Below the pieces are notes generated by a model. It did not search any database and had not been told where the DNA came from. It was given only the letters and a program-made list of their open reading frames with translations. 64,000 bases of DNA from Amycolatopsis taiwanensis DSM 45107 (lineage in GTDB: Bacteria > Actinomycetota > Actinomycetes > Mycobacteriales > Pseudonocardiaceae). Where the stretch lies: contig NZ_JAFB01000005.1 in assembly GCF_000519205.1 (NCBI RefSeq), positions 37,724 through 101,723 on the forward strand. The letters are read 5' to 3'. Position 1 is the stretch's first letter; each line of letters opens with the position of its first letter. The translations under genes and the position numbers were made by a program. Of this stretch, positions 9,520 to 39,720 are shown piece after piece.

Positions 9520-9705
9520 AAATCGGCCACCGGCCTTTCCGAATCGTCCTGGAACCACATCTTGCGTCAATACTTCCCCAAGGGGGCGGACCTGTCCGGC
9601 TACACTCAACAAGAACTCGACAGGGTCGCTGACAAGTTGAACAATCGTCCACGGCAGACACTTGACTGGCTCAAACCGACCGAGGTCTTCAACAACCTCT
9701 TGCCA
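9520..9705 (+). mobile_element. IS30-family transposase 3'-terminal remnant
   Basis: LRQYFPKGADLSGYTQQELDRVADKLNNRPRQTLDWLKPTEVF is the conserved C-terminus of IS30 transposases. The catalytic region upstream is absent or diverged. Confidence 0.6.
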
Positions 9706-9803
9706 GACTTGCCAACCCAACCTGGTGCACTCACCACTTCAACCTGCCCTCGATCACTCGAACGTGTATCGAACGTATGGCTGAAAATTGATAGTATGGT
9801 GGC

Positions 9804-11075
9804 ATGCCCGAGCAGACTCCCGCTTCCCGGTTGTGGCAGGTTCCCGATGGGGACCTGACCGCGATCGGGGTGGCACGTGAGGAAAGGCTGCGGATCGCCT
9901 ATGCGGAGATGCTCGAGTTCGTGGGCGAGAGCGAGCAGCGTGGGCTGGGGAAGTCCTTGGGATTCAAGGACACCTCCGCGTTCCTGACCGATACCTTGCG
10001 GATTTCTGCGCGGGAAGCCAAACAACGCATCGACCATGCCAGGGCAACCATGCCCTCCTCATCGCTGACCGGCGTGCCGCAACCCCCACCACAGGCCGCC
10101 ACCGGCAAAGCACTCACCGCCGGGGACATCAACGCAGAACACGTCCACGCGATCACCACGACCTTTCAGGCGTGCCCAGCGGAGATCCCCGTCGAGCAGC
10201 GCGAAGCAGACGAGCGCATCCTGGTGGAGCTGGCTCGACAGGCCGGACCGGAGGCGGTGCGCAAAGCCGGTCGTCGCCTGCGCGCGATCTGGGAGCAGGA
10301 GACCGCGCCACCGGAAGACAAGGACCGCGGGCAAGCCCACCCACTGCGGCGGTTGGACATCACGCGCCGCAAAGACGGTAGCATCCGCTTCAGCGGTGAA
10401 CTGGACGCCGAAACCGCCGAGGAACTCGACGGGCTACTCGGGCCACTGGCGAAACCACACAGGAACCCTGAGACCGGCGAACACGATACCCGCAGCCCAG
10501 CCGAACGCGCCGGAGACGCACTCGCCGAGATCATCGCCCTGGCCGCCCGCTGCGACGAACTCGGTACCCAGGGCGGTGAGCGCGCGGTGATGATCGTGTC
10601 GGTCACTCTCGCGGAGCTGGAGAACCGTGCCCGGCACGCCTTCCTCGACATCCCCGGGATATCGAGCGTCGACGGCCTTCGCCGCCTGGCGTGTGAGTCC
10701 AAGGTGGTGCCCGCGATCTTCGGCAACAACGCCGCACCCCTGTATGTGGGCGATGCTTCCCGGTTCGCCACCCCGGCCCAACGCCGCTATCTGGCCGCCC
10801 GAGACGGCGGATGCGCGTTTCCCGGCTGCACTCGCGGTCCTAAATGGACGACGCCGCACCATGTCGTGCCCTGGTCTGTGGACAAGCGCACCGACGCCGA
10901 TAATCTCGTGCTCCTGTGCGGCCGGCATCACCGGGTGATCCACCACACGCAGTGGGAGGTAAGGATGAACGGGCATCTGCCCGAGTTCATCCCCCCACCC
11001 TGGACTGACCACGAGCGAAAACCCATGCGCAACCTCGCGCACACCACCCCGCCCAGATACCAACAAGCCGCATAA
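9804..11075 (+). CDS. DUF222/HNH endonuclease (REP13E12-like)
   Basis: A long N-terminal DUF222-like region is followed by a C-terminal HNH with CAFPGC...HHVVPW...DNLVLLCGRHHRVIH. Confidence 0.85.
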   Translation: MPEQTPASRLWQVPDGDLTAIGVAREERLRIAYAEMLEFVGESEQRGLGKSLGFKDTSAFLTDTLRISAREAKQRIDHARATMPSSSLTGVPQPPPQAATGKALTAGDINAEHVHAITTTFQACPAEIPVEQREADERILVELARQAGPEAVRKAGRRLRAIWEQETAPPEDKDRGQAHPLRRLDITRRKDGSIRFSGELDAETAEELDGLLGPLAKPHRNPETGEHDTRSPAERAGDALAEIIALAARCDELGTQGGERAVMIVSVTLAELENRARHAFLDIPGISSVDGLRRLACESKVVPAIFGNNAAPLYVGDASRFATPAQRRYLAARDGGCAFPGCTRGPKWTTPHHVVPWSVDKRTDADNLVLLCGRHHRVIHHTQWEVRMNGHLPEFIPPPWTDHERKPMRNLAHTTPPRYQQAA

Positions 11076-11204
11076 CCACACAGGAACTCAGCACCCGAGA
11101 GGCAACACCGCCGCCCGGGCGCTGACCCGGCCATGCACCCGCCTCGCACCGGGCAGGATCACGCCGACTTCGAGTACTTCCGTCAACTTCTTCTGCCGCG
11201 AGGG

Positions 11205-12119
11205 TCAGCCGATGGTGAGGACGACTTTGCCACGACCGTGTCCGGTCTCCACCTCACGGTGCGCATCGGACGCGCGCTCCAGCGGCAATGTGCGACGAAC
11301 GTGGAAGCGAAGTTTCCCTTGTGCGTAAAGGTCGGCGAGTTCAGCGAGCCGAGTTGCCGAGCGCAGGTTGGGCGCGACGCGGCGGATACCGAGTTCCTGC
11401 GCCCTGCCGTGCTCGACCAGCGTGAGAATTCGATCCCGGTCGGCAACCAGAGCCAGCGACACGGCGAGCGCGTCAGCACCGGCTCCATCCAGGGCGGCGT
11501 CCACGCCGTCCGGCGCGACCGCTCGCACACGGTCCAGCAGGCCATCACCGTAGGCGACGGGTACCGTGCCGAGCGAGCGGAGGTAGTCGTGGTTCACCTC
11601 GCGGGCCGTGCCGATAACGGTCGCGCCCCACTCCACCGCCAGCTGAACCGCGACCGTACCGACCGCACCGGCCGCCCCGTGGACGACCACGGTGTCGTCC
11701 TTACCGACGCGCAACTCCTGTAGCGCGATGTGCGCGGTCTGGGCCCCGGCACTGAACCCGCCGGCGACCTCCCACGGCATGTCGGCCGGTTTGGCGGTCA
11801 CGTGCTCGGCAGGTGCCACCACGTATTCGGCGTAACCGCCCAGCAACCCGAACCCAAGTACCTCCGCACCGACCGCGACGCCGGTAACACCCTCGCCGAC
11901 CTGGTCGACCACGCCGGCGAACTCGTTGCCGGGGATCTTGGGCGACCCGGCCGGGGCCCCTGGGGGCGTCCAGCCCGCTCGCACCGCACAGTCGAAGGGC
12001 TGTACTCCCGCGGCCTTGACCCGGACCCGGATCTGCCCGGCGCCGACCCGTGGTCGGTCGACTTCCATCAGACGCAACACTTCTGGACCGCCAGGCTCCG
12101 CGAAGGCGGCTGCTCTCAT
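11205..12119 (-). CDS. zinc-binding alcohol dehydrogenase / NADPH:quinone reductase family
   Basis: MRAAAF..GGPEVL...VKAAGVQPFD, then the Rossmann motif VVVHGAAGAVG. The ATG at 12119 was confirmed in sequence. Confidence 0.85.
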   Translation of the reverse strand: MRAAAFAEPGGPEVLRLMEVDRPRVGAGQIRVRVKAAGVQPFDCAVRAGWTPPGAPAGSPKIPGNEFAGVVDQVGEGVTGVAVGAEVLGFGLLGGYAEYVVAPAEHVTAKPADMPWEVAGGFSAGAQTAHIALQELRVGKDDTVVVHGAAGAVGTVAVQLAVEWGATVIGTAREVNHDYLRSLGTVPVAYGDGLLDRVRAVAPDGVDAALDGAGADALAVSLALVADRDRILTLVEHGRAQELGIRRVAPNLRSATRLAELADLYAQGKLRFHVRRTLPLERASDAHREVETGHGRGKVVLTIG

Positions 12120-27646: not shown

Positions 27647-27964
27647 CGGAGGAGCAGAGTCATGAGTGTGCACAATTCGCGTATACGCGCCGGTATCGCC
27701 ACCGCTGCCGGTTCTCCTGTCACTCGCACCATCGTGCGGTGTCTCATCGGGTGTGCCATTACCGCACTCACGGGGCGGATCAGCGCAGCGGAGCGGCCCG
27801 CTTCGAATACCTGCGCTTCGGGGTCTCGCTAGCTTGATCCGGGGAACAGGCGGCCGACCCCGTCAACCCAGAGCCATACTTGTGCCCGTCGCGAGTATCG
27901 AAGTCGGTTGGGGCGGGTTGGGCCGATTTCGGCGTTCTTGCCGGAACCTCGGAACTCGTCACAA

Positions 27965-28270
27965 ACCCAGAACTCACCTCCTTCGCCCCAGAACTCAGCC
28001 ACCCGAACCCAGAACTCGCCCACCTGCACCCAGAATTCAGCCACCTGAACCCAGAACTCGCCCTCCCCAGCCGGGGACACGCCAGCACCTGGCGTGTCCC
28101 CGGTTCAGGCACCCGAGTTCCCGGTTCAGGTGCCTGAGTTCCCGGTTCAGGTGCCTGAGTTCCCGGTTCAGGTGCCTGAGTTCTCGGTTCAGGTGCCTGA
28201 GTTCCCGGTTCAGGTGCCTGAGTTCCCGGTTCGGTCGGGCGTGTCCCCGGTCCAGGCACTTGAGTTCCGG
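27965..28270. repeat. 306-bp imperfect palindrome of 21-bp tandem units: L1-L5 inverted and degenerate, R1-R8 direct, R2/R3/R5/R6 identical, around a perfect 14-bp inverted-repeat centre
   Basis: Seen directly. The unit is ttcaggtgcctgagttcccgg; each unit has an inner TCAGG-TG-CCTGA near-palindrome. The centre is ccggggacacgcca-gcacc-tggcgtgtccccgg (28070-28102). Confidence 0.9.
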
Positions 28271-28526
28271 GTTGGAAACAACAGATTTCGAAGGCGGGAT
28301 TGCCCCGGCAGGACGGCTGCTTCGAAGCGATGGTCGAACGTACGTGGTCGAGTTCGGGAAGAGTCCCGGCCAGCTGTCAAGGCGACGGGCGTTACGCGGT
28401 GTCCAGCGATGCTTGATGTTGGGCGTTATGGGCATTACCGATGTCCACCAACTCGACGGAGTCCCGCCGGCGTACGAGCGAACGCGAGCTCCGATGGCAT
28501 TGTCGCAGTTGGACTAGTCTGGCCTC

Positions 28527-29114
28527 GTGTTATTGGACGCGTTGAGCCCAGAGGCCTACCTTGCCGAGGATGCCGTCATCGACTTCGGTCGACCGGCGGT
28601 ACGACTACTGGCCCACGGGTTGCGCGCACAGCACGACGACGACGTGGAGTTCGCCAAGGCGGCGTTCGAACACGTTCGCGACAACGTTGCGCACTCGTGG
28701 GACGCACAAGATCCCACGGTGTCCATCACCGCGTCGGATACGGCCGTCAACGGTGTCGGCCTCTGCTTCGCCAAGGCACACCTGTTGGCCGCCATCCTCC
28801 GGTCCCAGGGCATCCCCACCGGATTCTGCTACCAGCGCCTGACCGACGATGACCAGTCCTACTTGCTCCACGGCCTCGTCGCCGTGTTCCTGAACGGCGA
28901 CTGGCATCGCCAGGATCCCCGTGGCAACAAGCCTGGCGTCGACGCCCAGTTCTCGATCAAGGAGGAAAGACTGGCCTGGCCGGTTCGCCCCGAACGGGGC
29001 GAGCACGACTACCCGCAGGTCTTCCCCGGCCCCCATCCGACAGTCATCGCCGCCCTGCAGGCGACGGACAACGTCCTCGACCTCTGTCGAGGAGGCCTCC
29101 CCAGCAGCCTCTGA
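28527..29114 (+). CDS. transglutaminase-like superfamily protein (putative cysteine protease)
   Basis: The 195-aa protein has Cys in VNGVGLCFAKAHLLAAILRSQGIP, plus downstream His/Asp, consistent with the TGase-like core. Confidence 0.7.
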   Translation: MLLDALSPEAYLAEDAVIDFGRPAVRLLAHGLRAQHDDDVEFAKAAFEHVRDNVAHSWDAQDPTVSITASDTAVNGVGLCFAKAHLLAAILRSQGIPTGFCYQRLTDDDQSYLLHGLVAVFLNGDWHRQDPRGNKPGVDAQFSIKEERLAWPVRPERGEHDYPQVFPGPHPTVIAALQATDNVLDLCRGGLPSSL

Positions 29115-29205
29115 TAGTCGATTCGAAACGTCTACTCACCCCCGGCCACGACGTGGTAGATCATCGCAACGACACCCCACCGAGCGAACGCGTAGGCTGA
29201 TAAGC

Positions 29206-29544
29206 GTGATTTGTCCCAAGTGCCAGAATGTCATGCGGACCGTGGACAAGAACGGTGTGCACATCGAGCAGTGTGACGGGTGCCGTGGCATCTTCCTGGA
29301 CCGCGGTGAGCTGGAGCAGATAGCGGGCGCCGAGCGTGCCTACTACGGGAGCCCACCGCCGTATCGCGGTGAAATGCCGCACTACGGCGACTCACCCCGG
29401 CCGTATCGTGGCGGTCACGGCGACTCCCCTCGGCCGTACCGCGGCGGCTACCGCGACTCGCCCCGCCCGTACTACGACGACTCACCACGTCCATACCAGC
29501 ACGGGCACCGGAAGCGCGGCTTCCTGGAGAACTTGTTCGACTAG
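29206..29544 (+). CDS. TFIIB-type zinc-ribbon protein with C-terminal (DSPRPYRGG)4 repeats
   Basis: CPKCQNVM...CDGCRGIFLDRGELE is a zinc ribbon. Four PRPY repeats are followed by the tail GFLENLFD. The GTG start is at 29206. Confidence 0.7.
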   Translation: MICPKCQNVMRTVDKNGVHIEQCDGCRGIFLDRGELEQIAGAERAYYGSPPPYRGEMPHYGDSPRPYRGGHGDSPRPYRGGYRDSPRPYYDDSPRPYQHGHRKRGFLENLFD

Positions 29545-29666
29545 TTCCGGGGAACCTCGGTTCGAGTAACTGTCGTCGTAGGGTGATGCCGGTGGGCTCC
29601 ACGCGGGAATCCGCCGCTCCGGGCGGACAAACTCGTGTGGGGCGCAGGCTTTGGCCGGGAGGGTAG

Positions 29667-30314
29667 ATGCTCGATCCGCGGATCTGTCCGGCGTGCAAGG
29701 AGCTTGAGCGGCGCCCGGTGGTCGAACACGGGAAGCGGGTGTGTGAGACCTGCGACCATCGGTGGTCGTTCCGGCACCTGCCGCTGTTCGCGTTGACCGG
29801 GCCGAGTGGTGCCGGCAAGTCCACGGTCGGCCCGGCGCTGGTCGAGCGGTTGGCCGGCCAGGTGATCGTGTTCGAACAGGACGTGTTGTGGGTCGCGGGG
29901 CTGCGCGATGACGTCGAGGGACACCCGCGGTTCCGTTCGGCGTGGCTGCGCATGGCCGCGATGACACACCAGAACGGGCGCCCGGTCGTGCTGTGCGGGA
30001 CGGTGGTGCCGCCGGAGTTCGAGCGGTTGCCGGAGCGGGCGCTGTTCTCGGACATCCATTACCTGGCGCTGGTGGCGGACCCGGACGTGCTGACCAACCG
30101 GCTGCGCGCGCGTCCGGCCTGGCGCGAGTGGGACGAGCCCCGGATCGCCGAGATGCTGGAGTTCAACGACTGGCTCCAGCGTAACGCCGCGTCCATGGGC
30201 GTCAGTCTTTTCGACACCACGAACGCCACTCTGGACGCAACCGTTGACCACGCCGCCGACTGGATCCGTGCTCGGTTGAGAAGCGACGAGGTGGCGTGGG
30301 ATGCGGTCACATAG
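29667..30314 (+). CDS. zinc-ribbon + P-loop NTPase (kinase-like AAA_33-type)
   Basis: The N-terminus is CPACKEL...CETCDH. The Walker A motif is GPSGAGKST. Confidence 0.7.
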   Translation: MLDPRICPACKELERRPVVEHGKRVCETCDHRWSFRHLPLFALTGPSGAGKSTVGPALVERLAGQVIVFEQDVLWVAGLRDDVEGHPRFRSAWLRMAAMTHQNGRPVVLCGTVVPPEFERLPERALFSDIHYLALVADPDVLTNRLRARPAWREWDEPRIAEMLEFNDWLQRNAASMGVSLFDTTNATLDATVDHAADWIRARLRSDEVAWDAVT

Positions 30315-30402
30315 AAACACAAAGTAGTCACGCAATTTAGGACGTTGCGCCCGTAAGCACCCCTTCCGCCTAGGTATAGTCCTGTCACCGCGATGTTCGG
30401 GT

Positions 30403-30987
30403 GTGGAGGCGCTTGTGGGCGAGTTCGTCGACGCCGCGTTGTCCTTTCCCGCGGCGATCTTCTCCGTTCTGCTCGCCGTCGTCGTGCTCTACTGGCTGCT
30501 CGTGCTCATCGGCACCCTGGACGTCGAGATCGGCGACCTCCACCTCGGCGACGGCATCGGGCTCGGCGGCGTCCCCATCACGGTCAGCGTGTCGGTGCTG
30601 GCCGCCGTCTCCTGGTTTCTCACCCTCGCGGGCACCGTGTCCATCGCCGGGCTCGCCACGACGCCGCGAACGCTCGTGGGCATCGTCGTGCTGGTCCTGG
30701 CGACCGTCATCGGTCTGCTCGTCGCGCGACTCGTCGCCGTACCGCTGCGCAGGCTCTATGTCACCGGCGGTCAGGCGTTCCGCAGCGACTTCCTCGGCCG
30801 CGAGTGCGTCATCCGCACCGGCACGGTCAGCGGGGACTTCGGCCAGGCCGAAGTCACGGCGGACGACGGGTCCTCCGCGATCATCCAGGTGCGTCAGACC
30901 GGCGAGCACGAGCTGGCCAACGGCCACCGCGCATTGATCTTCGACTACGACATCGACGGTGAGTTCTTCTGGGTCGTGCCTGCCTGA
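30403..30987 (+). CDS. NfeD-like membrane protein (flotillin partner, YqiJ-like)
   Basis: Three TM helices are followed by a C-terminal OB-fold-like soluble domain. The gene sits immediately upstream of flotillin. Confidence 0.65.
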   Translation: MEALVGEFVDAALSFPAAIFSVLLAVVVLYWLLVLIGTLDVEIGDLHLGDGIGLGGVPITVSVSVLAAVSWFLTLAGTVSIAGLATTPRTLVGIVVLVLATVIGLLVARLVAVPLRRLYVTGGQAFRSDFLGRECVIRTGTVSGDFGQAEVTADDGSSAIIQVRQTGEHELANGHRALIFDYDIDGEFFWVVPA

Positions 30988-30998
30988 AAGGTAGATAA

Positions 30999-33002
30999 AT
31001 GGAAGCAATCCTCATTGCCGGCGGCGTGGTGATCGTCGTGCTCCTGCTCATTCTCATCGCCATCAGCCGCCTGTACCGCAAGGTGGAACAGGGGCAGGCA
31101 CTGATCATCAACAAGGTCCGCAGCGCACACGTGACGTTCACCGGCGGGGTGGTACTTCCGGTGCTGCACAAGGCGGAGACCATGGACATCTCCGTCAAGA
31201 CCATCCACATCCAGCGCACCGGCCAGGACGGCCTGATCTGTCAGGACAACATCCGCGCCGACATCCGCATCACGTTCTTCGTGCGGGTCAACAAGACCAG
31301 CGAGGACGTCATCAAGGTCGCGCAGGCCATCGGTACCGAGCGCGCCAGCGACCAGGCCACGATGCAGGCATTGTTCGACGCGAAGTTCTCCGAGGCGCTC
31401 AAGACCGTCGGCAAGCACCTGGACTTCGTGGACCTCTACACCAAGCGCAACGAGTTCCGCGACCGGATTCTCCAGGTCATCGGCACCGACCTCAACGGCT
31501 ACAGCCTCGAAGACGCGGCCATCGACTACCTCGAGCAGACCCCGTTGAACCAGCTCGACGCCAGCAACATCCTTGACGCGCAGGGCATCCGCAAGATCAC
31601 CGAGCTGACGGCGATCGAGCACGTGCGCACCAACGAGTACCAGCGCAACGAGGAGAAGGAGATCACCAAGCAGAACGTGGACGCTCGCGAGGCGATCCTC
31701 GAACTGGAACGCCGCCAGGCCGACGCGGAGAACCGTCAGCGCCGCGAGATCGAGACTATGAAGGCCCGCGAGGAGGCCGAGACCGCGAAGGTGCAGGCCG
31801 AGGAACGGCTCAAGGCACAAGCCGCGCAGCTGCGTACCGACGAGCAGTTGGGCATCCAGGACCAGAACCGGGCCCGCGAGGTCGCCGTCGCCGAGAAGAA
31901 CCGCGAGCGCGTCATCGCCATCGAGACCGAGCGCATCGAGAAGGACCGGATGCTGGAGGTCGTGTCCCGCGAGCGGGAGATCGCCCTTGCCAGCGCGGCC
32001 AAGGACAAGGAGGTCGAGGTCGAGAAGCGCTCGGTCGCCGAGGTGGTCCGCGAGCGCGTCGCCGTCGACAAGACCGTGGCCGAGCAGGAGGAGAACATCA
32101 AGAACCTCCGCGCGGTGCAGGATGCCGAACGCACCCGGCAGGCGATCGTCATCCAGGCGGAGGCCGAGGCGCAGGAGAACCTGGTCAAGGGCATCAAGGC
32201 GGCCGAGGCCGCGGAGGCCGCCGCCAAGCACAAGGCCCGCGAGCAGCTCACGCTCGCCGAGGCCCGGCAGCAGACCGCGGACCTGGAGGCGCGCGCCAAG
32301 ATCCGCTTGGCGGAAGGTATCCAGGCCGAGGTGGCCGCGGCGGGTCTCGCCGAGGTGCAGGTCCGGGAACGCAACGCCGAGGTCCTGCAGAAGGAAGGCG
32401 TTGCCGAGGCGGTCGTCGAGCGGGAGAAGGGCCTGGCGAGGTCGGAGGCCGTGGAGAAGGTCGGCCGCGCGGAAGCCGTCGTGGATCGCGAGAAGGCGCT
32501 GGCCACCGCGGACGCGTTGCGCGAGAAGCTGAAGGGCGAGGCCGAGGGTCTCACCGAGAAGGCCGCCGCCATGGCGGCACTGGACGACGCGTCGCGCGGA
32601 CACGAGGAGTTCCGGCTGCGGCTGGAGCAGGAGAAGGAGGTGCGGCTCGCCGGCATCGCCGCGCAGCGCGAGGTCGCGGAGTCGCAAGCGATGGTCCTCG
32701 CGGCCGGGCTGGAGAAGGCCGACATCGACATCGTCGGCGGCGACAGCGTGTTCTTCGACAAGCTCATGGGCTCGATCTCGCTCGGCAAGAGCGTCGACGG
32801 GTTCGTCGGTAACTCGGAGGTGGCGCAGCGGCTGGGTGGTGCGTGGCTGAACGGCGACGCGAACTTCACCGAGGACCTCAAACAGATCCTCGGCTCGTTG
32901 AGCACCGAGGACCTCAAGAACGTCTCCGTGTCGGCGTTGTTGACCAAGATGATGAAGGACGGGGTGCCTGACTCGCCGGCCGTCATCACGCCGAAGCCGT
33001 GA
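30999..33002 (+). CDS. flotillin-family SPFH/band-7 protein (YqiK-like)
   Basis: An N-terminal TM is followed by an SPFH domain and a long Ala/Glu-rich coiled-coil region of EA repeats. Confidence 0.9.
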   Translation: MEAILIAGGVVIVVLLLILIAISRLYRKVEQGQALIINKVRSAHVTFTGGVVLPVLHKAETMDISVKTIHIQRTGQDGLICQDNIRADIRITFFVRVNKTSEDVIKVAQAIGTERASDQATMQALFDAKFSEALKTVGKHLDFVDLYTKRNEFRDRILQVIGTDLNGYSLEDAAIDYLEQTPLNQLDASNILDAQGIRKITELTAIEHVRTNEYQRNEEKEITKQNVDAREAILELERRQADAENRQRREIETMKAREEAETAKVQAEERLKAQAAQLRTDEQLGIQDQNRAREVAVAEKNRERVIAIETERIEKDRMLEVVSREREIALASAAKDKEVEVEKRSVAEVVRERVAVDKTVAEQEENIKNLRAVQDAERTRQAIVIQAEAEAQENLVKGIKAAEAAEAAAKHKAREQLTLAEARQQTADLEARAKIRLAEGIQAEVAAAGLAEVQVRERNAEVLQKEGVAEAVVEREKGLARSEAVEKVGRAEAVVDREKALATADALREKLKGEAEGLTEKAAAMAALDDASRGHEEFRLRLEQEKEVRLAGIAAQREVAESQAMVLAAGLEKADIDIVGGDSVFFDKLMGSISLGKSVDGFVGNSEVAQRLGGAWLNGDANFTEDLKQILGSLSTEDLKNVSVSALLTKMMKDGVPDSPAVITPKP

Positions 33003-36000
33003 CGTCGACCGTGTCCGCGCCGGCCGAGGAGGCGGCCGGCGCGATTCAGGACGGGCTCGACGCCCGCACGTACGAGGTGCTGCGGCAGCGGCTCGCCGGG
33101 GCGGCGAAGGAACTGGCGCGGCGGGCCGAGGCCCTCAACACCCGCCGCCTGGAGGTGTTCGGCGGCACCGATTTCCGGCTGCTCGGCGGCGAGCGGATCC
33201 GGACCGACAACAACTGCGTGCCGCGCGACATCGTGTCCATTCCGGACAGTGACGGCGGCGCGAGCGGGCTGATGCTGTTCGGCTACAACGTCTTCATCGG
33301 GCTGAAACCCGAGACGACGGTCGACGACGTGTTCTCGCTACACCGGTTCACCCGCGACGGCGAGGCGTTCCGGTTCGAGGACGCGTCGAACGAGCGGCCG
33401 GAGCTGTTGCGGGACGAGCGGTTCCGGCGTGAGTTCACCGAGCTGTACCGGTACTACCGGGAAACCCGGCTCATGCAGTTGCGGCCGGTCGAGGGCAAGC
33501 TGCTCGCGGTGTTCCAGACCGGCCCACGTACCGAGGACATCAAGGTGCTGCGGTGGGTGGCCGGCGCCCACGGCGAACTGTCCTACCTGGACAATGTGGG
33601 CGAGCGGGACCACGTGTTCCCACCCGCGTACGACTTCAGGTGGACCGAGACCACGCGGGACGATCACGTGCTCGGCCGCCACCCGCACATCTCCATCGAG
33701 AACGAGGTGTTCGTCGAGACGATCGGCGGCGACCTGACCGTCAAGATCGAGAACAACACCGAGATCGGCGAGGGCATCTACCGCGAGCCGGTCGACGAGC
33801 CGCTGCAAAGCCTCGCCGACGCGGACGTCCGGTACGCGCGCGTCGGCCCGCTGATTCTGCTGAAGATCCTGCCGTACAACGAAAAGACCCACCGATACCT
33901 GGTCTTCAACACCCGTACCAAGACGGTCGTGCGGCTCGACGGCATCGGCCAGGCCTGCCTGCGGCTGCCCGAGGACCAGGGCATCATCTTCCCCGGCGGC
34001 TACTACCTCGCCACCGGCGTGTCCCGCACGTTCGAGAACACCGATACCGACGACCTGGAGTTCGAGCGGGTCATCCGGTCTCCCAACGGCGAGGACGTGC
34101 TGTACGTCTTCCACGCCCGCCGCGAGGGACGCTCGCTTCTGTTGCCGTACAACGTGATCCGCAAGGAGGTCGCAAGCCCCCTGCCGTGTCACGGGTACTC
34201 GCTGTTCGAGGACGGCACGCTCGTCGCGTTCCGCGCCACGTCGGACGAGCCGACGCGAGTGCACCCGATGCAGGTGTGGCAGACACCGTTCGTGTCGGAC
34301 TCGTTCGCCGCCGCGCAACCCATCGGCACCGGGCCGCTCGAACGTGTCGGCAACGCGGACCTCGTGCGTGGCATCTCCGACTGTCTTTCCGTGACCCGGA
34401 TGGTCGACGAGATGACGCCGTCGACGGCCGTGTTCGAGGGCCTGATCGCCGCGTGTGCCAGGGCGTTCGACAGCTACCACTGGCTGGGTGAGCCGGACCT
34501 CGGCGACCTGCGGGGTGCGCTCACCGACGTCCGCGCGACGGCCGAGCAGGTGCTGGCCGAGTTCGAGAACGTCAAGGCACTCACCGACTCCGCGGCCGCC
34601 GAGCTGACCAGGACCGGTGAGGACATCGCGTCCCTGGTGCGGCGGGTGCGGGGCGAGGTGCCGGGTTCCGCGGACGAGTGGGTCGAGCAGCTCACGTCGC
34701 TGCGGAAGGCACAGGGCCGCCTCGAAACGCTGCGCGAACTGCGGTACGTGGACACGGCACGGATCGACGAGCTGGCCGCCACCCTACAGTCCGAACTGGA
34801 CAGTGCTGCCCAGCGAGCGGTCGAGTTCCTCCAGGGCGAGGACGCGTTCACCGGCTACCACGAGAAGGTCGAGGCGCTCGCCACGGCGGCAGCCGCCATC
34901 AAGACCGTGGCCGAGGCCGCGCCGGTCGTCGAGCGGCTGGCCGAGCAGGCCGGCGGACTGGAGATCATCACCGAGATCGTCGGCTCGCTGGACATCGGCG
35001 ACGCGACCGTACGCACGAAGATCCTCGAACGGGTCGGCGAGGTGCTGGCCCGCGTCAACCGTGCACGGGCCACTGCGGACGCCCGGCGGCGCGACCTCCT
35101 TGCCACGGAAGGCCGTGCGGCGTTCGCGGCCGAGTTCGCCCTGCTGGGCCAGTCGATCACGGGTGCGCTCGCGGTCGCCGAAACGCCGCGCAAGTGCGAC
35201 GAGCAACTGGGCCGGCTGCTGCTGCAGCTGGAGAATCTGGAGTCCCGGTTCGGCGAGTTCGACGACTTCCTCGCCGAACTGACGGCCAAGCGCACCGACG
35301 TCTACGAGGCGTTCTCGTCCCGCAAGCAGGCGCTGGTCGATGAGCAGGCACGGCGTGCGGACCGGCTGTTCGAGTCCGCTGACCGGATTCTCACGAGCAT
35401 CAGCCGGCGCGCGGCGTCCTTGTCCACTATGGACGAGATCAACACGTACTTCGCGTCCGACCCGATGGTCGCGAAGGTTCGGTCGGTTGCGAACGACCTG
35501 CGTACCCTCGACGACGCGGTCCGCGCCGAGGAGTTGGACGGACGGCTGAAGACGGCCCGTCAGGAGGCCGGCCGCTCGCTGCGGGACCGCGTGGACCTCT
35601 TCGGTGACGGTGGCGAGACCGTTCGCCTCGGCCGGCACCGGTTCGCGGTCAACACGCAGGCCATCGACCTGACGCTGGTCCCGAAGGACGGCGAGATGGC
35701 GTTGGCCATCACCGGAACCGACTTCCGCACGCCCGTGCAGGATCCCGGGTTCCAGGGCACGAAGCCGTTCTGGGACCAGCTACTCGTGTCCGAGACCGCG
35801 GATGTCTACCGCGCCGAGTACCTGGCCACCTCCGTGCTCGCGGACGGTTCAGCCGACGGGGCTGGTGACGCCGCGGACATACTCGACATCGTGCGCCGCG
35901 CGGCCGAGTCCCGGTACGACGAGGGCTACGAGCGGGGTGTGCATGACCACGACGCGGCGGCCATCCTCGAGGCGCTGCTGCGGTTGCGGTCGAGCGCGGG

Positions 36001-37918
36001 CCTGCTGCGCTATCCGGCAGCGGCACGCGCATCGGCCCAGTTCTTCTGGGCGCACGGGACGACCGACGAGGCGCGCACGGTGTGGTCGACGCGTGCCGGT
36101 TCGCTGGCCAGGGCACGGGAAGCGTTCGGACCAGTACCGGCGATCAGCGAGCTGTGCGCGGAACTGGCCACGGCCATCGACGAGTTCGGCCTGGCCACCG
36201 GCGATTCGGCCCTGGCCGCGGAGTACCTGTTCGAGGAGTTGGGCTCGACCCCGCTCGGTTTCGTGACCAGTGCCGGCGCCCCCGCGCTCGTCGAGAGGTT
36301 CCGGCGTGCGCTGGACGGCCGTCGCGAGTTCGACGACGACCTCCGCGCACTCGAGGATCTGAACGCCAGGCACCAGCTCGCGACCGCGTGGCTGTCGGCG
36401 TTCGTGTCCACACAGGACGACCTGGTGGCCGACGAGCTACCCGAAGCGGTGGCGTTGCTGCTGTGCGAGCTGCCCAGGCACGACTCGTCGGCGGCCGTGT
36501 CGGCCACGGTCGAAGGTTTGCTGGGCGCCCACCCCCGCGTGGTGGAGGGCCGCATGACCGTCCGGCTGGACGAAGTCCTGACCAGGACCCGCAAGTTCCG
36601 GCTCGAGCGCGTGCCGGCGTTCCGCGCGTACCAGAAGCAACGCAACGAGTTGCTCACCCGCGAGCGTGCCCGGCTGCGGCTCGATGAGTTCACGCCGAAG
36701 GTCATGAGCACGTTCGTGCGCAACAAGCTGCTCGACGAGGTGTACCTGCCGCTGATCGGCGACAACCTGGCCAAGCAGCTCGGTGCGGCCGGCGACGCCA
36801 AGCGCACCGACCAGATGGGCCTGCTGCTGCTCATCTCCCCACCGGGCTACGGCAAGACGACGCTGATGGAATACGTCGCGAACCGGCTCGGCCTGGTGTT
36901 CGTCAAGGTCAACGGCCCGGCACTGGGCCACGACGTGACGTCGCTCGACCCGGCGGACGCGCCGACGGCGACCGCGCGCCAGGAGGTCGAGAAGATCTCC
37001 TTCGCGCTCGAACTGGGCAACAACGTGTTGCTCTACCTGGACGACATCCAGCACACGTCACCGGAACTGTTGCAGAAGTTCATCTCCCTCTGCGACGCCC
37101 AGCGGCGCATGGAAGGCGTGTGGGACGGCCGGACCAGGACCTACGACCTGCGTGGCAAGCGCTTCGCGGTGTGCATGGCCGGCAACCCCTACACCGAGGC
37201 CGGCAAGCGCTTCCGCATCCCGGACATGCTGGCCAACCGTGCCGACGTGTGGAACCTCGGCGACGTGCTCTCCGGCCGCGAGGACGAGTTCGCGTTGAGT
37301 TACCTGGAGAACGCGCTGACGTCCAACCCGGTCCTGGCTCCACTGTCCACAAGGGATCGTGCGGATCTCGAGCTGCTGATCCGGTTGGCCCGTGGCGAGG
37401 AGGTCCAGTCGGACCAGCTGTCGCACCCGTACTCCGCCGTCGAGTTGGACCAGCTCACGTCCGTGCTGCGCAAGCTGTTGCGGGTCCAGGAGGTCGTCCT
37501 CGCCAACAACCAGGCGTACATCGCATCGGCGGCGCAGGCGGACTCGTCGCGTACCGAGCCGCCGTTTTTGCTCCAGGGCTCGTACCGGAACATGAACAAG
37601 CTGGCAGAGCGCATTGTCCCGGCAATGAACGATCAGGAACTGGAAGCCACGATCGACGACCATTATCTTGGTGAGGCGCAGACGCTGACGTCCGGCGCGG
37701 AGGCGAACCTGCTGAAACTCGCTGAACTTCGTGGTCGGCTCACCAAGGGAAAGGCCGAACGCTGGGCGACGGTCAAGGCGGCGTATTTACGGGACAAGGC
37801 GTTGGGCGGCACGGAGGACGATCCGTTGAGCCGCGCGGTCGGCGCCGTCGGTCTGCTCGCGGACCGCGTCGCGGCCGTGGAAAAGGCCATCGTCCGAGCG
37901 AGCGAACGTCGCGGTTAG
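32999..37918 (+). CDS. 1639-aa flotillin-associated protein with C-terminal MoxR/AAA_5-type ATPase
   Basis: Walker A is LLLISPPGYGKTTL, Walker B is VLLYLDDIQH, and the sensor is AVCMAGNPYTE...RIPDMLANRADVW. The N-terminal about 1200 aa have no motif I can recognise. The start overlaps the flotillin stop. Confidence 0.85.
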   Translation: MTSTVSAPAEEAAGAIQDGLDARTYEVLRQRLAGAAKELARRAEALNTRRLEVFGGTDFRLLGGERIRTDNNCVPRDIVSIPDSDGGASGLMLFGYNVFIGLKPETTVDDVFSLHRFTRDGEAFRFEDASNERPELLRDERFRREFTELYRYYRETRLMQLRPVEGKLLAVFQTGPRTEDIKVLRWVAGAHGELSYLDNVGERDHVFPPAYDFRWTETTRDDHVLGRHPHISIENEVFVETIGGDLTVKIENNTEIGEGIYREPVDEPLQSLADADVRYARVGPLILLKILPYNEKTHRYLVFNTRTKTVVRLDGIGQACLRLPEDQGIIFPGGYYLATGVSRTFENTDTDDLEFERVIRSPNGEDVLYVFHARREGRSLLLPYNVIRKEVASPLPCHGYSLFEDGTLVAFRATSDEPTRVHPMQVWQTPFVSDSFAAAQPIGTGPLERVGNADLVRGISDCLSVTRMVDEMTPSTAVFEGLIAACARAFDSYHWLGEPDLGDLRGALTDVRATAEQVLAEFENVKALTDSAAAELTRTGEDIASLVRRVRGEVPGSADEWVEQLTSLRKAQGRLETLRELRYVDTARIDELAATLQSELDSAAQRAVEFLQGEDAFTGYHEKVEALATAAAAIKTVAEAAPVVERLAEQAGGLEIITEIVGSLDIGDATVRTKILERVGEVLARVNRARATADARRRDLLATEGRAAFAAEFALLGQSITGALAVAETPRKCDEQLGRLLLQLENLESRFGEFDDFLAELTAKRTDVYEAFSSRKQALVDEQARRADRLFESADRILTSISRRAASLSTMDEINTYFASDPMVAKVRSVANDLRTLDDAVRAEELDGRLKTARQEAGRSLRDRVDLFGDGGETVRLGRHRFAVNTQAIDLTLVPKDGEMALAITGTDFRTPVQDPGFQGTKPFWDQLLVSETADVYRAEYLATSVLADGSADGAGDAADILDIVRRAAESRYDEGYERGVHDHDAAAILEALLRLRSSAGLLRYPAAARASAQFFWAHGTTDEARTVWSTRAGSLARAREAFGPVPAISELCAELATAIDEFGLATGDSALAAEYLFEELGSTPLGFVTSAGAPALVERFRRALDGRREFDDDLRALEDLNARHQLATAWLSAFVSTQDDLVADELPEAVALLLCELPRHDSSAAVSATVEGLLGAHPRVVEGRMTVRLDEVLTRTRKFRLERVPAFRAYQKQRNELLTRERARLRLDEFTPKVMSTFVRNKLLDEVYLPLIGDNLAKQLGAAGDAKRTDQMGLLLLISPPGYGKTTLMEYVANRLGLVFVKVNGPALGHDVTSLDPADAPTATARQEVEKISFALELGNNVLLYLDDIQHTSPELLQKFISLCDAQRRMEGVWDGRTRTYDLRGKRFAVCMAGNPYTEAGKRFRIPDMLANRADVWNLGDVLSGREDEFALSYLENALTSNPVLAPLSTRDRADLELLIRLARGEEVQSDQLSHPYSAVELDQLTSVLRKLLRVQEVVLANNQAYIASAAQADSSRTEPPFLLQGSYRNMNKLAERIVPAMNDQELEATIDDHYLGEAQTLTSGAEANLLKLAELRGRLTKGKAERWATVKAAYLRDKALGGTEDDPLSRAVGAVGLLADRVAAVEKAIVRASERRG

Positions 37919-37935: not shown

Positions 37936-39720
37936 TCAGCTTCGCTTTACGCCGGCGCGAGACGTTGTCTTTTTCTGCGGTCCTTGTTGTGACCTTCGAC
38001 GAGGTTTCGGCTTTGGCGGTTGCGCGGCCGGCGGCGTTGGCTCCTTTCTGGTGACGGTTAATCGGACGGTGCCGTTGTTGTTGCCATAGAACCCCCAAGC
38101 GTCGTTGGCGAAGGCATAGAGGTAACCGCCGTGGCGCACTTGGTGGACGCTTGTGCCCCCGGTGCCGATGTTGATGCGTTGGTGGCCGGTGTTGGGCTTG
38201 CCGTTGACAGTGACCGCGTTGTTCGCGACGTAGCCGACCAGCGACATCCACGGCAGGTCTGGTTCGCGTGGGGCCCCGAGGAAAGACGCTTGTTCGTCCC
38301 CGGATAGGCGGCGGTACAGCATCTCACACCTACCGATCAGGCTTCCCCAGCTGCGCCACGCTCTCTCCACCGCTACCACGGGCTCTCGCCAGTCAAACAA
38401 CCCTGTGCTGCCGTTCGGGCCCGAGGGGATGTCCATATCCAGCCACTCGCCCTCGGCTTCGAAGGTGTAGTCGCCCGGTTCGAGATAGATGCCCGTGTCG
38501 TTCCATGGCTCTCGCGCGAACACCTCGGCTTGCTGGGGGTGCCCCACGGTGGCGGTGCGCGTAGGTCGGTACGGCCCGCTGGTGATGGGTGGGTCGTTCG
38601 GGTTTTGACGTTCGTACGCAGACTCGTGCACGTAGATGGAGTCATGCACGTGATGCAGATTCGCCGGCGGGGTGGGGGCATCCCGGTGGTCGAGCAGAGG
38701 GATCGCCCGCGGCCGTAAGGAAAGGAAGGGCTCCATCGCCGGCTCGAGCACCGGGTTGAGCCAGCCGAGTGCGCTGCGGTCGTCGTCGTGGAGGAGATCG
38801 TGGGGATCCGGGTGGATCTGCCGCGTGGTGCTCGGGTGGAAGGCGAGCTTGATGTCATGTTCTGCCTGTTCGATCATCCACTGCAGGGCGCCGTCGCTGA
38901 GCCCGATTTCGCGATGGCCGCCGCCGACGTCCAGGTGACTGCCGGGAAACCACACCTGTTTGACCTTCTGCGGTTGGAGAATATCGGGCGGTGACGACAT
39001 CTCCTCCCACAGCGTGGGCGAGAAGGTGCCACGGGATTCATCCACGGCCAGCGCCTGATAGGCGAACGAGACGTAGGGGTTGAGCCGGACGTCGTTGAAC
39101 TCATAGCGGCGAGAGGAGAAGCCCGGGGCAACCCAGCGCCAGGGATCCGGGATGCCCAGCGAGCCGACGGTGTCCCACACCCCGATGAACTTCACCGGGA
39201 GGTCCTTGGCGTTGCGCGGGTCGAACCAGAAGTCCAGACCGTCACGCCAGTGTTGATCGCCATCCTGGCCATCGCGGCCCCGCTGATCCTGGTAGCCCAA
39301 CTGGTAGCGGTGGTATATGCGTTTGATCCGGCACCAGGTGTCCTGTTCGTCTGGACCGCGGCGGATCAGGCCACACATCGCGATCAACCCGGCGAGGCTA
39401 CGCGCGGTGTAGGCGCCACGGCTGAAACCGAACAGCGCGATGTAATCGTCAGGCTGATAGTTCGTGATGAGCCAGTGGTAGCCTTCGAGCACATTGGCTG
39501 CCAAGCTTCGCCCTGGGCCGCGGCCGAGGCCCACACCAAAGCCACCGGCCATCAGCCTTGACACCACACCGCCGCGGGTGCCCACGCCCGTTATGTAGTA
39601 GCTCAGTTGCTTGCTGGGATCAGTCTTGTCGAGAGCGTTGAACAGTCGACGGACGTTCGTCACTGAATCTTGTTCAGGCGAGTTCCACGTGCCATCACAA
39701 CACACGATGAGATAGCGCAT
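37936..39720 (-). CDS. DUF2235 (Tle1-like alpha/beta hydrolase) protein with unknown beta-rich C-terminal domain
   Basis: The N-terminal MRYLIVCCDGTWNSP...GFSRGAYTARSLAG is the DUF2235 hallmark with a GxSxG-like motif. It is convergent with the giant ATPase. Confidence 0.8.
   Translation of the reverse strand: MRYLIVCCDGTWNSPEQDSVTNVRRLFNALDKTDPSKQLSYYITGVGTRGGVVSRLMAGGFGVGLGRGPGRSLAANVLEGYHWLITNYQPDDYIALFGFSRGAYTARSLAGLIAMCGLIRRGPDEQDTWCRIKRIYHRYQLGYQDQRGRDGQDGDQHWRDGLDFWFDPRNAKDLPVKFIGVWDTVGSLGIPDPWRWVAPGFSSRRYEFNDVRLNPYVSFAYQALAVDESRGTFSPTLWEEMSSPPDILQPQKVKQVWFPGSHLDVGGGHREIGLSDGALQWMIEQAEHDIKLAFHPSTTRQIHPDPHDLLHDDDRSALGWLNPVLEPAMEPFLSLRPRAIPLLDHRDAPTPPANLHHVHDSIYVHESAYERQNPNDPPITSGPYRPTRTATVGHPQQAEVFAREPWNDTGIYLEPGDYTFEAEGEWLDMDIPSGPNGSTGLFDWREPVVAVERAWRSWGSLIGRCEMLYRRLSGDEQASFLGAPREPDLPWMSLVGYVANNAVTVNGKPNTGHQRINIGTGGTSVHQVRHGGYLYAFANDAWGFYGNNNGTVRLTVTRKEPTPPAAQPPKPKPRRRSQQGPQKKTTSRAGVKRS

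What the first reader, a model, noticed from the sequence alone, without database searches (positions are those of the whole stretch)
28527..37918. Co-directional six-gene cluster: TGase-like protease, two Zn-ribbon proteins, NfeD-like, flotillin and a giant AAA_5 ATPase
Six genes lie on one strand with short gaps or overlaps (29114/29206, 29544/29667, 30314/30403, 30987/30999, and 33002/32999 overlapping). NfeD plus flotillin is a known pair. The tight coupling of a 1639-aa MoxR/AAA_5-type ATPase to the flotillin stop codon is, to my knowledge, functionally uncharacterised. Such proteins tend to carry an uninformative 'DNA repair ATPase' label in actinomycete annotations. The upstream trio may be an independent small module or part of the same unit: a papain-like TGase-fold cysteine protease, a zinc-ribbon protein with PRPY repeats, and a zinc-ribbon P-loop kinase. 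This is my best candidate in the window for an undescribed membrane-microdomain-associated NTPase system; the iteron-like array immediately upstream adds to the case. Its function is unknown to me. Possibilities include stress response, membrane remodelling or phage defence.
Basis: partly seen in the sequence, partly recalled or inferred. Interest (0 to 1): 0.7.

Follow-up and report, generated by a model that had tools for sequence, protein, structure and literature searches.

The report
Flotillin operon with giant AAA+ ATPase
Only the last three of the six genes form a real unit: a membrane-scaffold protein (flotillin), its small membrane partner and a 1639-residue ATP-driven motor that travel together across many bacterial phyla; the trio was noted once in a comparative-genomics paper and I found no experimental study of it, so it is a good but not new lead into what bacterial flotillins do.

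Summary
The six co-directional ORFs exist as described, in Amycolatopsis taiwanensis chromosomal DNA. They are not one system.

The conserved unit is three genes: a YqiJ/YuaF (NfeD-like) 3-TM protein, a YqiK-type flotillin, and a DUF3686 ATPase built from a β-propeller, a helical stalk and a MoxR-class AAA+ module.
- Flotillin lies directly upstream of the ATPase, on the same strand, in 76 of 76 genome loci that have enough upstream sequence.
- The same holds in 11 of 12 additional loci from other lineages: Bacteroidota, Planctomycetota, Verrucomicrobiota, Sumerlaeia, Deinococcota and Gammaproteobacteria.

The upstream genes do not belong to it.
- The transglutaminase-like gene, both Zn-ribbon genes, the 21-bp repeat array and the downstream lipase never accompany the triad (0 of 80 loci).
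- The two Zn-ribbon genes form a separate conserved pair.

The operon type was already described computationally by Ravi et al., mSystems 2024 (PMC11237479). My searches found no experimental work.

In some lineages the triad is fused to PspA/CesT operons or followed by a PLD-family hydrolase and TelA. My best explanation is an ATP-driven remodeller of flotillin scaffolds, or of their client proteins, acting in membrane maintenance or stress. This is inferred, not shown.

I found no support for anti-phage defence or for the "DNA repair" label.

Verdict: a new member of a known but uncharacterised kind, of moderate interest.

The parts
30315..30414 (+). Intergenic region upstream of the triad. 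Relatively AT-rich, with TATAGT at 30375-30380 (a possible -10 element) and GGAGG at 30405-30409, 6 nt before the GTG at 30415.
   Evidence: Read from the sequence. The consensus promoter scan found nothing, so the promoter is inference only.
30415..30987 (+). YqiJ/YuaF-type (truncated NfeD-like) membrane protein: three hydrophobic segments plus a C-terminal NfeD-like domain.
   Evidence: Hydrophobic segments at residues 18-36, about 55-75 and about 88-108. The family profile A4 hits YuaF (2k14) at E 0.0078 and E. coli YqiJ at hhalign 88.6%, E 2.7e-6. One homologue hits PF21001 YqiJ_N at 6e-6 and one hits PF01957 NfeD at 3e-3. Present upstream of flotillin in 63 of 76 loci. Logan gene call gives 190 aa.
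30999..33002 (+). YqiK-type flotillin, 667 aa: N-terminal TM (residues 4-22), SPFH/Band_7 domain (about 28-171), a long Ala/Glu/Arg-rich helical region (about 206-560), and a C-terminal region that is conserved only among ATPase-linked flotillins.
   Evidence: Band_7 E 4e-12 on residues 1-230. BLASTP to E. coli YqiK 1e-38. TM segment and composition. Homologues at 80-92% identity carry PF01145 and are named flotillin/YqiK. C-terminal conservation shown in alignment A8.
32999..37918 (+). DUF3686-family giant ATPase, 1639 aa, soluble. Its GTG start overlaps the flotillin stop codon by 4 nt.
   Evidence: Pfam domains. More than 6475 homologues. 1406 clusters at 50% identity. No TM segment.
33110..34480 (+). 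DUF3686 region (residues 38-494): an N-terminal long helix followed by a roughly seven-bladed β-propeller (β strands at residues 60-428).
   Evidence: AlphaFold2 model, pLDDT 83.8, pTM 0.82. Foldseek top hits are WD40/β-propellers: DCAF1 at 5e-7, Elp1, IFT-A, LRRK2 WD40 and PALB2. The blade count is inferred from about 27 strands.
34574..36550 (+). Helical middle region (residues 526-1184), including DUF7902 (residues 615-698, nt 34841-35092).
   Evidence: PF25472 E 5e-32 and nothing else significant. Not modelled. Ravi et al. call this region 'coiled-coil'.
36716..37918 (+). C-terminal MoxR-class AAA+ module with a helical lid/tail. Walker A GYGKT at residues 1283-1287 (nt 36845-36859). Walker B LYLDD at residues 1345-1349 (nt 37031-37045), with DD in place of DE. 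Invariant N1396, R1414 and R1530.

Best explanation
Nucleotides 30415-37918 are a self-contained three-gene operon. It encodes (1) a 3-TM YqiJ/YuaF-type NfeD-like protein, (2) a YqiK-type flotillin anchored by one N-terminal TM helix, with its SPFH domain and long helical region in the cytoplasm, and (3) a soluble 1639-residue protein made of a β-propeller, a helical stalk of about 660 residues and a MoxR-class AAA+ module.

Shown: the three genes are inherited together across at least eight phyla and are often translationally coupled. The ATPase keeps a complete set of nucleotide-binding and hydrolysis motifs.

Inferred: the ATPase oligomerises through its AAA+ ring, as MoxR proteins do. It uses its propeller and stalk to engage the family-specific C-terminal region of the flotillin oligomer. 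It spends ATP to assemble, disassemble or remodel the flotillin scaffold, or to extract or hold client membrane proteins within it. On this reading it is part of membrane maintenance and envelope-stress tolerance, in some lineages working with PspA. Functional analogies are HflK/C with FtsH, ESCRT-III/PspA with Vps4-like ATPases, and MoxR with its VWA partners.

The transglutaminase-like gene, the Zn-ribbon/kinase pair, the repeat array and the Tle1-like lipase are merely neighbours.
For: Conservation of the unit:
- Flotillin is directly upstream on the same strand in 76 of 76 loci with room. The YqiJ-like gene is present in 63 of 76. No other gene is conserved.
- The triad or the flotillin-ATPase pair is also present in Dysgonomonas, Novipirellula, Prosthecobacter, Aureispira, two Hymenobacter, Sumerlaeia, Deinococcus, Pseudomonas pQBR103, Vibrio and Proteus. 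Flotillin phmmer E-values there run from 1e-90 to 1e-178.
- The flotillin stop and a candidate ATPase start lie within ±20 nt in 27 of 66 loci, with a 4-nt overlap in 11.
- Flotillin and ATPase identities to the window proteins co-vary across loci (r = 0.72, n = 73).
- ATPase-linked flotillins share a C-terminal region that is poorly matched in E. coli YqiK, and E. coli yqiJK has no ATPase next to it.

The ATPase as a working motor:
- Walker A, sensor-1 Asn and Arg residues are invariant.
- The propeller fold is confidently modelled.
- The ATPase has no TM segment, while flotillin has one and the YqiJ-like protein has three.

Link to the membrane and envelope stress:
- CesT/Tir and PspA sit in the same gene string in two Hymenobacter loci.
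- pQBR103 has a co-directional gene string with PspA, rhomboid, DUF350 and a glutathionylspermidine-synthase-like gene.
- In Vibrio, PLDc_2 and TelA follow the ATPase after a 1-nt junction.
- Ravi et al. 2024 reached the same contextual reading.
Against: - No experiment of any kind was found, and physical interaction was not tested. The mechanism rests on gene context and analogy.
- Walker B is an invariant Asp-Asp rather than Asp-Glu. The protein might therefore be a slow, switch-like ATPase rather than a processive remodeller.
- No VWA partner, which is typical for MoxR proteins, is present.
- Aureibacter tunicatorum has the ATPase with no flotillin within 7 kb.
- Eleven Streptomyces loci lack the YqiJ-like gene, so that component is dispensable.
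- No PspA or CesT was detected in this window or in the 80 genome loci. The test was tblastn with a Bacteroidota query, which has limited sensitivity.
- The helical middle third of the ATPase was not modelled.
Confidence: 0.55

Rival explanations
1. The triad is an accessory arm of the PspA/IM30 membrane-repair system. [quoted passage not shown] This overlaps with the best explanation and differs only in the substrate.
For: CesT/Tir and PspA lie directly upstream in the same gene string in Hymenobacter psychrophilus and in the Hymenobacter sp. DG25B plasmid. PspA heads the co-directional gene string on pQBR103. Ravi et al. propose exactly this for the 'abbreviated' operons.
Against: Most loci have no PspA nearby: none was detected in the 80 genome loci or in this window. 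Neighbours in the non-actinobacterial loci are unrelated enzymes. The invariant partner is flotillin, not PspA.
Confidence: 0.2
2. All six genes plus the repeat array form one 'membrane-microdomain NTPase system'.
For: The genes are co-directional with gaps of 122 nt or less.
Against: The transglutaminase-like gene, the Zn-ribbon-PRPY gene and the Zn-ribbon kinase are found in 0 of 80 loci. They are absent from the called or annotated genes of the seven lineage loci looked up by protein identity and of three plasmid-collection loci, and no match to them was found in the five plasmid-collection loci. The Zn-ribbon/kinase pair recurs alone in 18 of 18 metagenome loci with room. The repeat unit occurs in 0 of 104 loci. 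An 88-100 nt AT-richer spacer with a possible -10 element and a Shine-Dalgarno sequence separates the kinase gene from the triad.
Confidence: 0.03
3. The triad is an anti-phage or other conflict system, for example membrane-based abortive infection driven by an NTPase.
For: Large NTPases next to membrane proteins are common in defence systems. There is a weak PADLOC IetA hit at the AAA region (E 7e-4). A paper reports a 'flotillin' as the most induced gene in a Mycobacterium chelonae double lysogen (PMC8191103), but its relation to this family is unverified. A few copies lie on megaplasmids.
Against: No significant PADLOC family. No phage record carries it. The family is present in only 13 of 72,556 plasmid records, mostly non-mobilizable megaplasmids or chromids. 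Identity falls roughly with taxonomic distance (88-90% in Actinophytocola, 70-75% across Pseudonocardiaceae, Micromonosporaceae and Streptosporangiales, 59-66% in Streptomyces, 50-56% outside Actinomycetota), which fits mainly vertical descent under strong constraint. Neighbours are housekeeping genes, not defence islands.
Confidence: 0.07
4. The giant protein is a DNA-repair ATPase, as database names say, and its position next to flotillin is incidental.
For: Source annotations and the Pfam description read 'DNA repair ATPase' or 'ATPase involved in DNA repair'. There are weak P-loop-level hits to RuvB.
Against: The RuvB hits cover only about 45 residues around Walker A, at 21-23 bits against cut-offs of 282-299. 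No DNA-binding or nuclease domain was detected. The best structural match is the MoxR class, not RuvB. The near-invariant flotillin linkage is not what incidental adjacency would produce. No paper supports the label.
Confidence: 0.03

Closest known systems
YqiJ/YuaF - Band-7/flotillin - 'β-propeller + coiled-coil + AAA+ ATPase' operon described by Ravi et al., mSystems 2024 (PMC11237479)
   Same: Same gene order and the same three architectures. A Hymenobacter DUF3686 locus reproduces the published Dokdonia context (cHTH-protease in the opposite direction, then CesT/Tir, PspA, YqiJ, flotillin and ATPase). A Vibrio locus carries the PLD (HKD) gene that the paper mentions for Proteobacteria. The window corresponds to their 'abbreviated operon' without PspA.
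   Different: The paper gives no Pfam name and no experiment. I matched the family by architecture and context, not by aligning the paper's own protein sequence. Here the AAA+ module is additionally assigned to the MoxR/midasin/dynein clade, the linkage is quantified, and a Streptomyces variant lacking YqiJ is noted.
E. coli yqiJK and B. subtilis yuaF-floT (NfeD-like protein plus flotillin pairs)
   Same: The flotillin is homologous to YqiK (1e-38, 27% identity over 435 residues). The upstream protein is homologous to YqiJ and YuaF at profile level. Gene order is the same.
   Different: E. coli has no ATPase downstream of yqiK. The window flotillin is 114 residues longer and has a C-terminal region conserved only among ATPase-linked members.
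MoxR-class AAA+ ATPases (CbbQ, NorQ, RavA)
   Different: MoxR proteins are about 250-500 residues long and work with a VWA-domain partner. This protein has 1639 residues, an N-terminal propeller and stalk, no VWA gene nearby, and a DD rather than DE Walker B.
HflK/C-FtsH (an SPFH cage enclosing an AAA+ protease)
   Same: An SPFH-family scaffold is genetically or physically paired with an AAA+ machine at the membrane. This is a useful mechanistic analogy, drawn from established knowledge.
   Different: The ATPase here has no protease domain and no TM segment. It belongs to a different AAA+ clade. The flotillin bulk is predicted to be cytoplasmic rather than periplasmic.

Membership tests
SPFH / flotillin (YqiK-FloT type) | SPFH (Band_7, PF01145) domain | tested here: met
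   Residues 1-230 score E 4.2e-12, 46.9 bits, against a cut-off of 23.6. The full-length protein is missed, probably because of HMMER's compositional filter on the Ala/Glu-rich region.
SPFH / flotillin (YqiK-FloT type) | N-terminal membrane anchor followed by a long coiled-coil-type helical region | tested here: met
   One hydrophobic segment at residues 4-22. Residues 206-560 are 19% Ala, 19% Glu and 12% Arg. The alignment with YqiK runs through this region.
SPFH / flotillin (YqiK-FloT type) | Sequence homology to a prototype flotillin | tested here: met
   BLASTP against E. coli YqiK: E 1e-38, 27% identity over 435 residues.
SPFH / flotillin (YqiK-FloT type) | Forms large membrane-associated oligomers or microdomains | not testable with these tools
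   Needs biochemistry or imaging.
NfeD-like YqiJ/YuaF family | Multi-pass TM N-terminal part and a C-terminal NfeD-type β domain | tested here: inconclusive
   Three hydrophobic segments. The profile hits the YuaF soluble domain (2k14) at E 0.0078 as top PDB hit and E. coli YqiJ at hhalign 88.6%, E 2.7e-6. The window protein itself has no Pfam hit.
NfeD-like YqiJ/YuaF family | Gene immediately upstream of, and co-directional with, an SPFH gene | tested here: met
   An 11-nt gap in the window. Present in 63 of 76 loci.
DUF3686 'β-propeller + coiled-coil + AAA+' ATPase (Ravi et al. 2024) | PF12458 N-terminal region that folds as a β-propeller | tested here: met
   PF12458 E 2e-217. AlphaFold2 pLDDT 83.8 with WD40-type top hits.
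DUF3686 'β-propeller + coiled-coil + AAA+' ATPase (Ravi et al. 2024) | Helical middle region and a C-terminal AAA+ domain | tested here: met
   PF25472 plus AAA/AAA_5 at residues 1276-1399. C-terminal model.
DUF3686 'β-propeller + coiled-coil + AAA+' ATPase (Ravi et al. 2024) | Encoded directly downstream of a flotillin gene | tested here: met
   4-nt overlap in the window. 76 of 76 genome loci with room and 11 of 12 additional loci.
MoxR-class AAA+ (clade with midasin and dynein) | Fold of the AAA+ module closest to MoxR proteins | tested here: met
MoxR-class AAA+ (clade with midasin and dynein) | Canonical Walker B hhhhDE | tested here: not met
   Invariant LDD (D1348, D1349) in 32 and in 13 diverse sequences.
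MoxR-class AAA+ (clade with midasin and dynein) | Partner protein with a VWA/MIDAS domain encoded nearby | tested here: not met
   No conserved neighbour other than flotillin and the YqiJ-like gene. No VWA domain in any neighbour scanned or in the called-gene Pfam tables.
Known anti-phage defence systems (PADLOC-DB 2.0) | Significant match of any component to a defence-system model | tested here: not met
   Only IetA at E 7e-4 and mad3 at E 1.7e-3, both confined to P-loop regions.
RuvB / DNA-repair ATPases | Score at or above the family cut-off, with DNA-binding domains | tested here: not met
   21-23 bits against cut-offs of 282-299, covering about 45 residues.

The most novel reading that the evidence does not exclude
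Flotillin plus this giant MoxR-like ATPase is an ATP-driven membrane-scaffold machine: a bacterial counterpart of SPFH-cage/AAA+ or ESCRT-III/Vps4 pairs. The motor would dock on the flotillin C-terminal region and actively build, dismantle or empty flotillin microdomains. That would give bacterial flotillins a first defined, energy-dependent biochemical cycle. The machine is present across at least eight phyla and, as far as my searches show, has never been studied experimentally.
Probability: 0.45. Interest if true: 0.7.

Novelty: new member of a known kind. Interest (0 to 1): 0.45.

Why it matters
What bacterial flotillins actually do is still debated. Proposals include scaffolding, membrane-fluidity control and chaperoning of unfolded membrane proteins. 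A subfamily of YqiK-type flotillins that is almost always encoded with, and often translationally coupled to, a 1600-1900-residue AAA+ motor offers a direct handle on that question. The handle comes in genetically tractable hosts: Streptomyces, Myxococcus, Proteus mirabilis, Vibrio and the Pseudomonas plasmid pQBR103.

The result also corrects a misleading "DNA repair ATPase" name that is propagated through thousands of annotations. For this window specifically, it shows that only three of the six flagged genes belong together.

Tried and rejected
- Full-length flotillin against Pfam (E up to 10), NCBIfam and PDB found nothing useful. The problem was solved by scanning the N-terminal 230 residues alone.
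- The ATPase sequence against PDB gave only P-loop matches.
- Literature searches for DUF3686, PF12458 and 'DNA repair ATPase' plus flotillin returned no papers. 'Flotillin' plus 'MoxR' returned two papers, neither about this family.
- The consensus promoter and terminator scan was uninformative for this high-GC actinomycete.
- PspA and CesT were searched in the window and in all loci by tblastn with Hymenobacter queries. There was no hit outside Hymenobacter, but sensitivity is limited.
- I considered the downstream Tle1-like lipase as a possible analogue of the PLD partner and rejected it. It is convergent and is absent from all 80 loci.
- I considered the repeat array as a regulatory element of the system and rejected it.


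Full report
**Observation**

The window is high-GC DNA (65-72% GC). It is essentially identical to Amycolatopsis taiwanensis: the flotillin is 100% and the ATPase 99% identical to proteins of that species.

All six + strand ORFs lie at the stated coordinates, with gaps of 91, 122, 88 and 11 nt and a 4-nt GTGA overlap between the last two genes. An independent assembly with its own gene calls (L084) shows the same six genes. It places the Zn-ribbon gene start at 29233 and the YqiJ-like gene start at 30415. The latter fits a GGAGG 6 nt upstream.

**What each gene is**

- Gene 1 is a transglutaminase-core protein (E 1.5e-11).
- Gene 2 is a TFIIB-type Zn-ribbon protein (E 6e-19) with a 33-nt tandem repeat that encodes the PRPY repeats.
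- Gene 3 is a Zn-ribbon protein fused to an AAA_33/AAA_18 kinase-like P-loop.
- Gene 4 has three hydrophobic segments and no Pfam hit of its own. A profile of its family finds the B. subtilis YuaF soluble domain as top PDB hit (E 0.0078). It matches E. coli YqiJ by hhalign (88.6%, E 2.7e-6).
- Gene 5 gave no Pfam hit as a whole protein, even at E 10. Its first 230 residues hit Band_7 at 4e-12, and it aligns to E. coli YqiK at 1e-38. It is a YqiK-type flotillin with one N-terminal TM helix.
- Gene 6 carries DUF3686 (E 2e-217), DUF7902 and a C-terminal AAA/AAA_5 domain. It has no TM segment.

**Which genes belong together**

A scan of one genome per species returned 590 confirmed relatives of the ATPase, and the best 80 loci were kept.

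- tblastn with all window proteins shows flotillin directly upstream on the same strand in 76 of 76 loci with enough upstream sequence.
- The YqiJ-like gene is present in 63 of 76 by profile search.
- The transglutaminase-like gene, both Zn-ribbon genes, the Tle1-like lipase and the repeat-bearing ORF are present in 0 of 80.
- All-against-all clustering of neighbouring ORFs found no fourth conserved gene. The only exception is a lineage-specific, divergently transcribed PucR-type regulator in 29 Streptomyces loci. In the 11 Streptomyces loci that lack the YqiJ-like gene, flotillin follows directly after such a regulator where I examined it.

More distant family members, about 30-45% identical, were sampled through a second homology search, look-ups of their contigs and the plasmid collection.

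- The YqiJ-like gene, flotillin and ATPase appear in that order in nine lineages: Dysgonomonas (with two extra small genes inserted), Novipirellula, Prosthecobacter, Aureispira, two Hymenobacter, Deinococcus, Pseudomonas fluorescens plasmid pQBR103 and Proteus mirabilis. In these the YqiJ-like match was found with the window protein itself. Flotillin E-values there run from 1e-140 to 1e-178.
- Vibrio campbellii has the same order. There the YqiJ-like gene is detected only by the family profile (E 1e-19), and the flotillin match is weaker (3e-90).
- A Sumerlaeia genome has the flotillin-ATPase pair only.
- Aureibacter tunicatorum is the single exception, with no flotillin within 7 kb.

Coupling is tight. 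In 27 of 66 measurable loci the flotillin stop codon and a candidate ATPase start lie within ±20 nt, and 11 have the 4-nt overlap seen here. The identities of the two proteins to the window copies co-vary across loci (r = 0.72).

In contrast, a metagenome scan with the Zn-ribbon kinase shows the Zn-ribbon-PRPY gene directly upstream in 18 of 18 loci with room. None of those loci has the transglutaminase-like gene or the triad. The six genes therefore resolve into a lone transglutaminase-like gene, a conserved two-gene Zn-ribbon/kinase module, and the conserved triad.

The 21-bp repeat array (27964-28273) is an imperfect palindrome of about 5 plus 8 units. It is unique in the window and absent from all 104 loci held at the time. 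It does not bear on the triad.

**Anatomy of the ATPase**

- An AlphaFold2 model of residues 1-525 (pLDDT 83.8, pTM 0.82) has a long N-terminal helix, an all-β region at residues 60-428 and a helical bundle. Foldseek returns WD40-type β-propellers as top hits.
- Residues 526-1184 contain only DUF7902 and look helical. They were not modelled.
- A model of residues 1185-1639 (pLDDT 80.7) is closest to the MoxR proteins NorQ and CbbQ by Foldseek.
- Walker A (GYGKT, 1283-1287), N1396, R1414 and R1530 are invariant in two independent diverse alignments. Walker B is invariably Asp-Asp rather than Asp-Glu.

The family is large: more than 6475 members in one search and 1406 clusters at 50% identity. 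It is strongly constrained, with 70-75% identity across actinomycete families for a protein of about 1600 residues.

**Prior knowledge**

No paper in the library mentions DUF3686 or PF12458. No structure of a relative exists beyond the P-loop.

Ravi et al. (mSystems 2024, PMC11237479) describe the operon in a survey of PspA contexts. [quoted passage not shown] These are sometimes joined to CesT/Tir-PspA and, in some Proteobacteria, to a PLD hydrolase. They also note "abbreviated" operons that are widely distributed.

I could not align their example protein directly. However, DUF3686 loci reproduce their contexts:
- Two Hymenobacter loci have a LexA-like regulator in the opposite direction, followed by CesT/Tir, PspA, YqiJ (annotated DUF1449), flotillin and the ATPase.
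- In Vibrio the ATPase is followed, 1 nt later, by a PLDc_2 gene and then TelA.
- pQBR103 places the triad at the end of a gene string containing PspA, rhomboid, DUF2491, DUF350, DUF1190 and a glutathionylspermidine-synthase-like gene.

The window is therefore a member of a kind that has been noted computationally. My searches found no experimental characterisation.

**Mechanism**

Shown:
- obligate-looking co-inheritance and frequent translational coupling of flotillin and the ATPase;
- a soluble ATPase with intact nucleotide motifs, next to two membrane proteins;
- a C-terminal flotillin region specific to ATPase-linked members;
- recurrent fusion to envelope-stress and lipid-related genes.

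Inferred:
- the ATPase forms a MoxR-like ring;
- it reaches the cytoplasmic flotillin assembly through its propeller and stalk;
- it uses ATP to assemble, disassemble or empty the scaffold as part of membrane maintenance.

I put this at about 0.55 overall. The "functional module" part is much more secure than the "remodeller" part. A PspA-centred variant of the same idea (0.2) cannot be separated from it with these data.

**Rivals**

- Defence (0.07). It lacks PADLOC support, phage carriage, a mobile or patchy distribution and defence-island neighbours.
- The "DNA repair" label (0.03). It rests on P-loop-level RuvB similarity far below the family cut-offs.
- The six-gene system (0.03). It is contradicted by the neighbourhood data.

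**Verdict**

The locus is a new member of a known, uncharacterised kind. Interest is moderate (0.45): the triad is a promising and testable entry point into flotillin biology, but neither this locus nor the association itself is new.

Noticed in passing
window 29206-29544 and 29667-30314: The TFIIB-type Zn-ribbon protein with PRPY repeats and the Zn-ribbon-fused P-loop kinase-like protein form a conserved gene pair of unknown function. The Zn-ribbon gene lies directly upstream of the kinase in 18 of 18 soil-metagenome loci with room, at 53-81% kinase identity, independent of the flotillin triad.
   Followed up: partly
window 27964-28273: An imperfect palindrome built from 21-bp units: about 5 copies of AACCCAGAACTCAGCCACCYG facing about 8 copies of its complement CCCGGTTCAGGTGCCTGAGTT, centred near 28087. 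It lies in the spacer between a pyridine-nucleotide-disulphide oxidoreductase gene and the transglutaminase-like gene. It is unique in the window and absent from 104 related loci. A Logan contig of the same species ends inside it.
   Followed up: partly
window 37936-39720 (- strand): A 594-aa protein with a T6SS Tle1-like / DUF2235 lipase catalytic domain (E 3e-78) lies convergent to the ATPase gene, 17 nt from its stop codon. It is not conserved next to the triad (0 of 80 loci).
   Followed up: partly
window 37031-37045 (ATPase residues 1345-1349): The Walker B motif of the whole DUF3686 family is an invariant Asp-Asp (LYLDDIQH) instead of the canonical Asp-Glu. This may mean slow or regulated ATP hydrolysis.
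   Followed up: no
window 30999-33002: Technical caution. The full-length flotillin gets no Pfam hit even at E 10, and many homologues at 80-90% identity also lack a precomputed PF01145 hit, yet the isolated N-terminal 230 residues score 46.9 bits. The Ala/Glu-rich helical region apparently triggers HMMER's bias filter, so SPFH proteins of this type are under-annotated.
   Followed up: yes
L033 5945-7240 (-), L050 6455-7561 (-) and 27 other Streptomyces loci: A PucR-type regulator (GGDEF_2 + HTH_30) is transcribed divergently from the operon in 29 Streptomyces loci. In the 11 loci that lack the YqiJ-like gene it appears to abut flotillin directly (checked in L050). It is a candidate lineage-specific regulator.
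   Followed up: partly
L113 12834-14612 (Vibrio campbellii); L110 1-6818 (pQBR103); L081 6673-7902 (Dysgonomonas); L106 3523-4197 (Aureispira): Lineage-specific additions to the triad: PLDc_2 plus TelA immediately downstream (Vibrio); a co-directional gene string with PspA, rhomboid, DUF2491, DUF350, DUF1190 and a glutathionylspermidine-synthase-like gene upstream (pQBR103); a Peptidase_M54 gene and a 184-aa gene inserted between flotillin and the ATPase (Dysgonomonas); and an extra short Band_7 protein (Aureispira).
   Followed up: partly
L109 (Aureibacter tunicatorum) 7001-11830: This is the most divergent family member sampled (about 28-32% identity to the window ATPase). It has no flotillin or YqiJ-like gene within 7 kb, and is the only such case among 12 additional loci.
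   Followed up: no
literature: PMC8191103: In Mycobacterium chelonae carrying two prophages, a gene annotated 'flotillin protein' is the most up-regulated gene (log2FC 6.6). I could not check whether it belongs to an ATPase-linked operon of this type.
   Followed up: no
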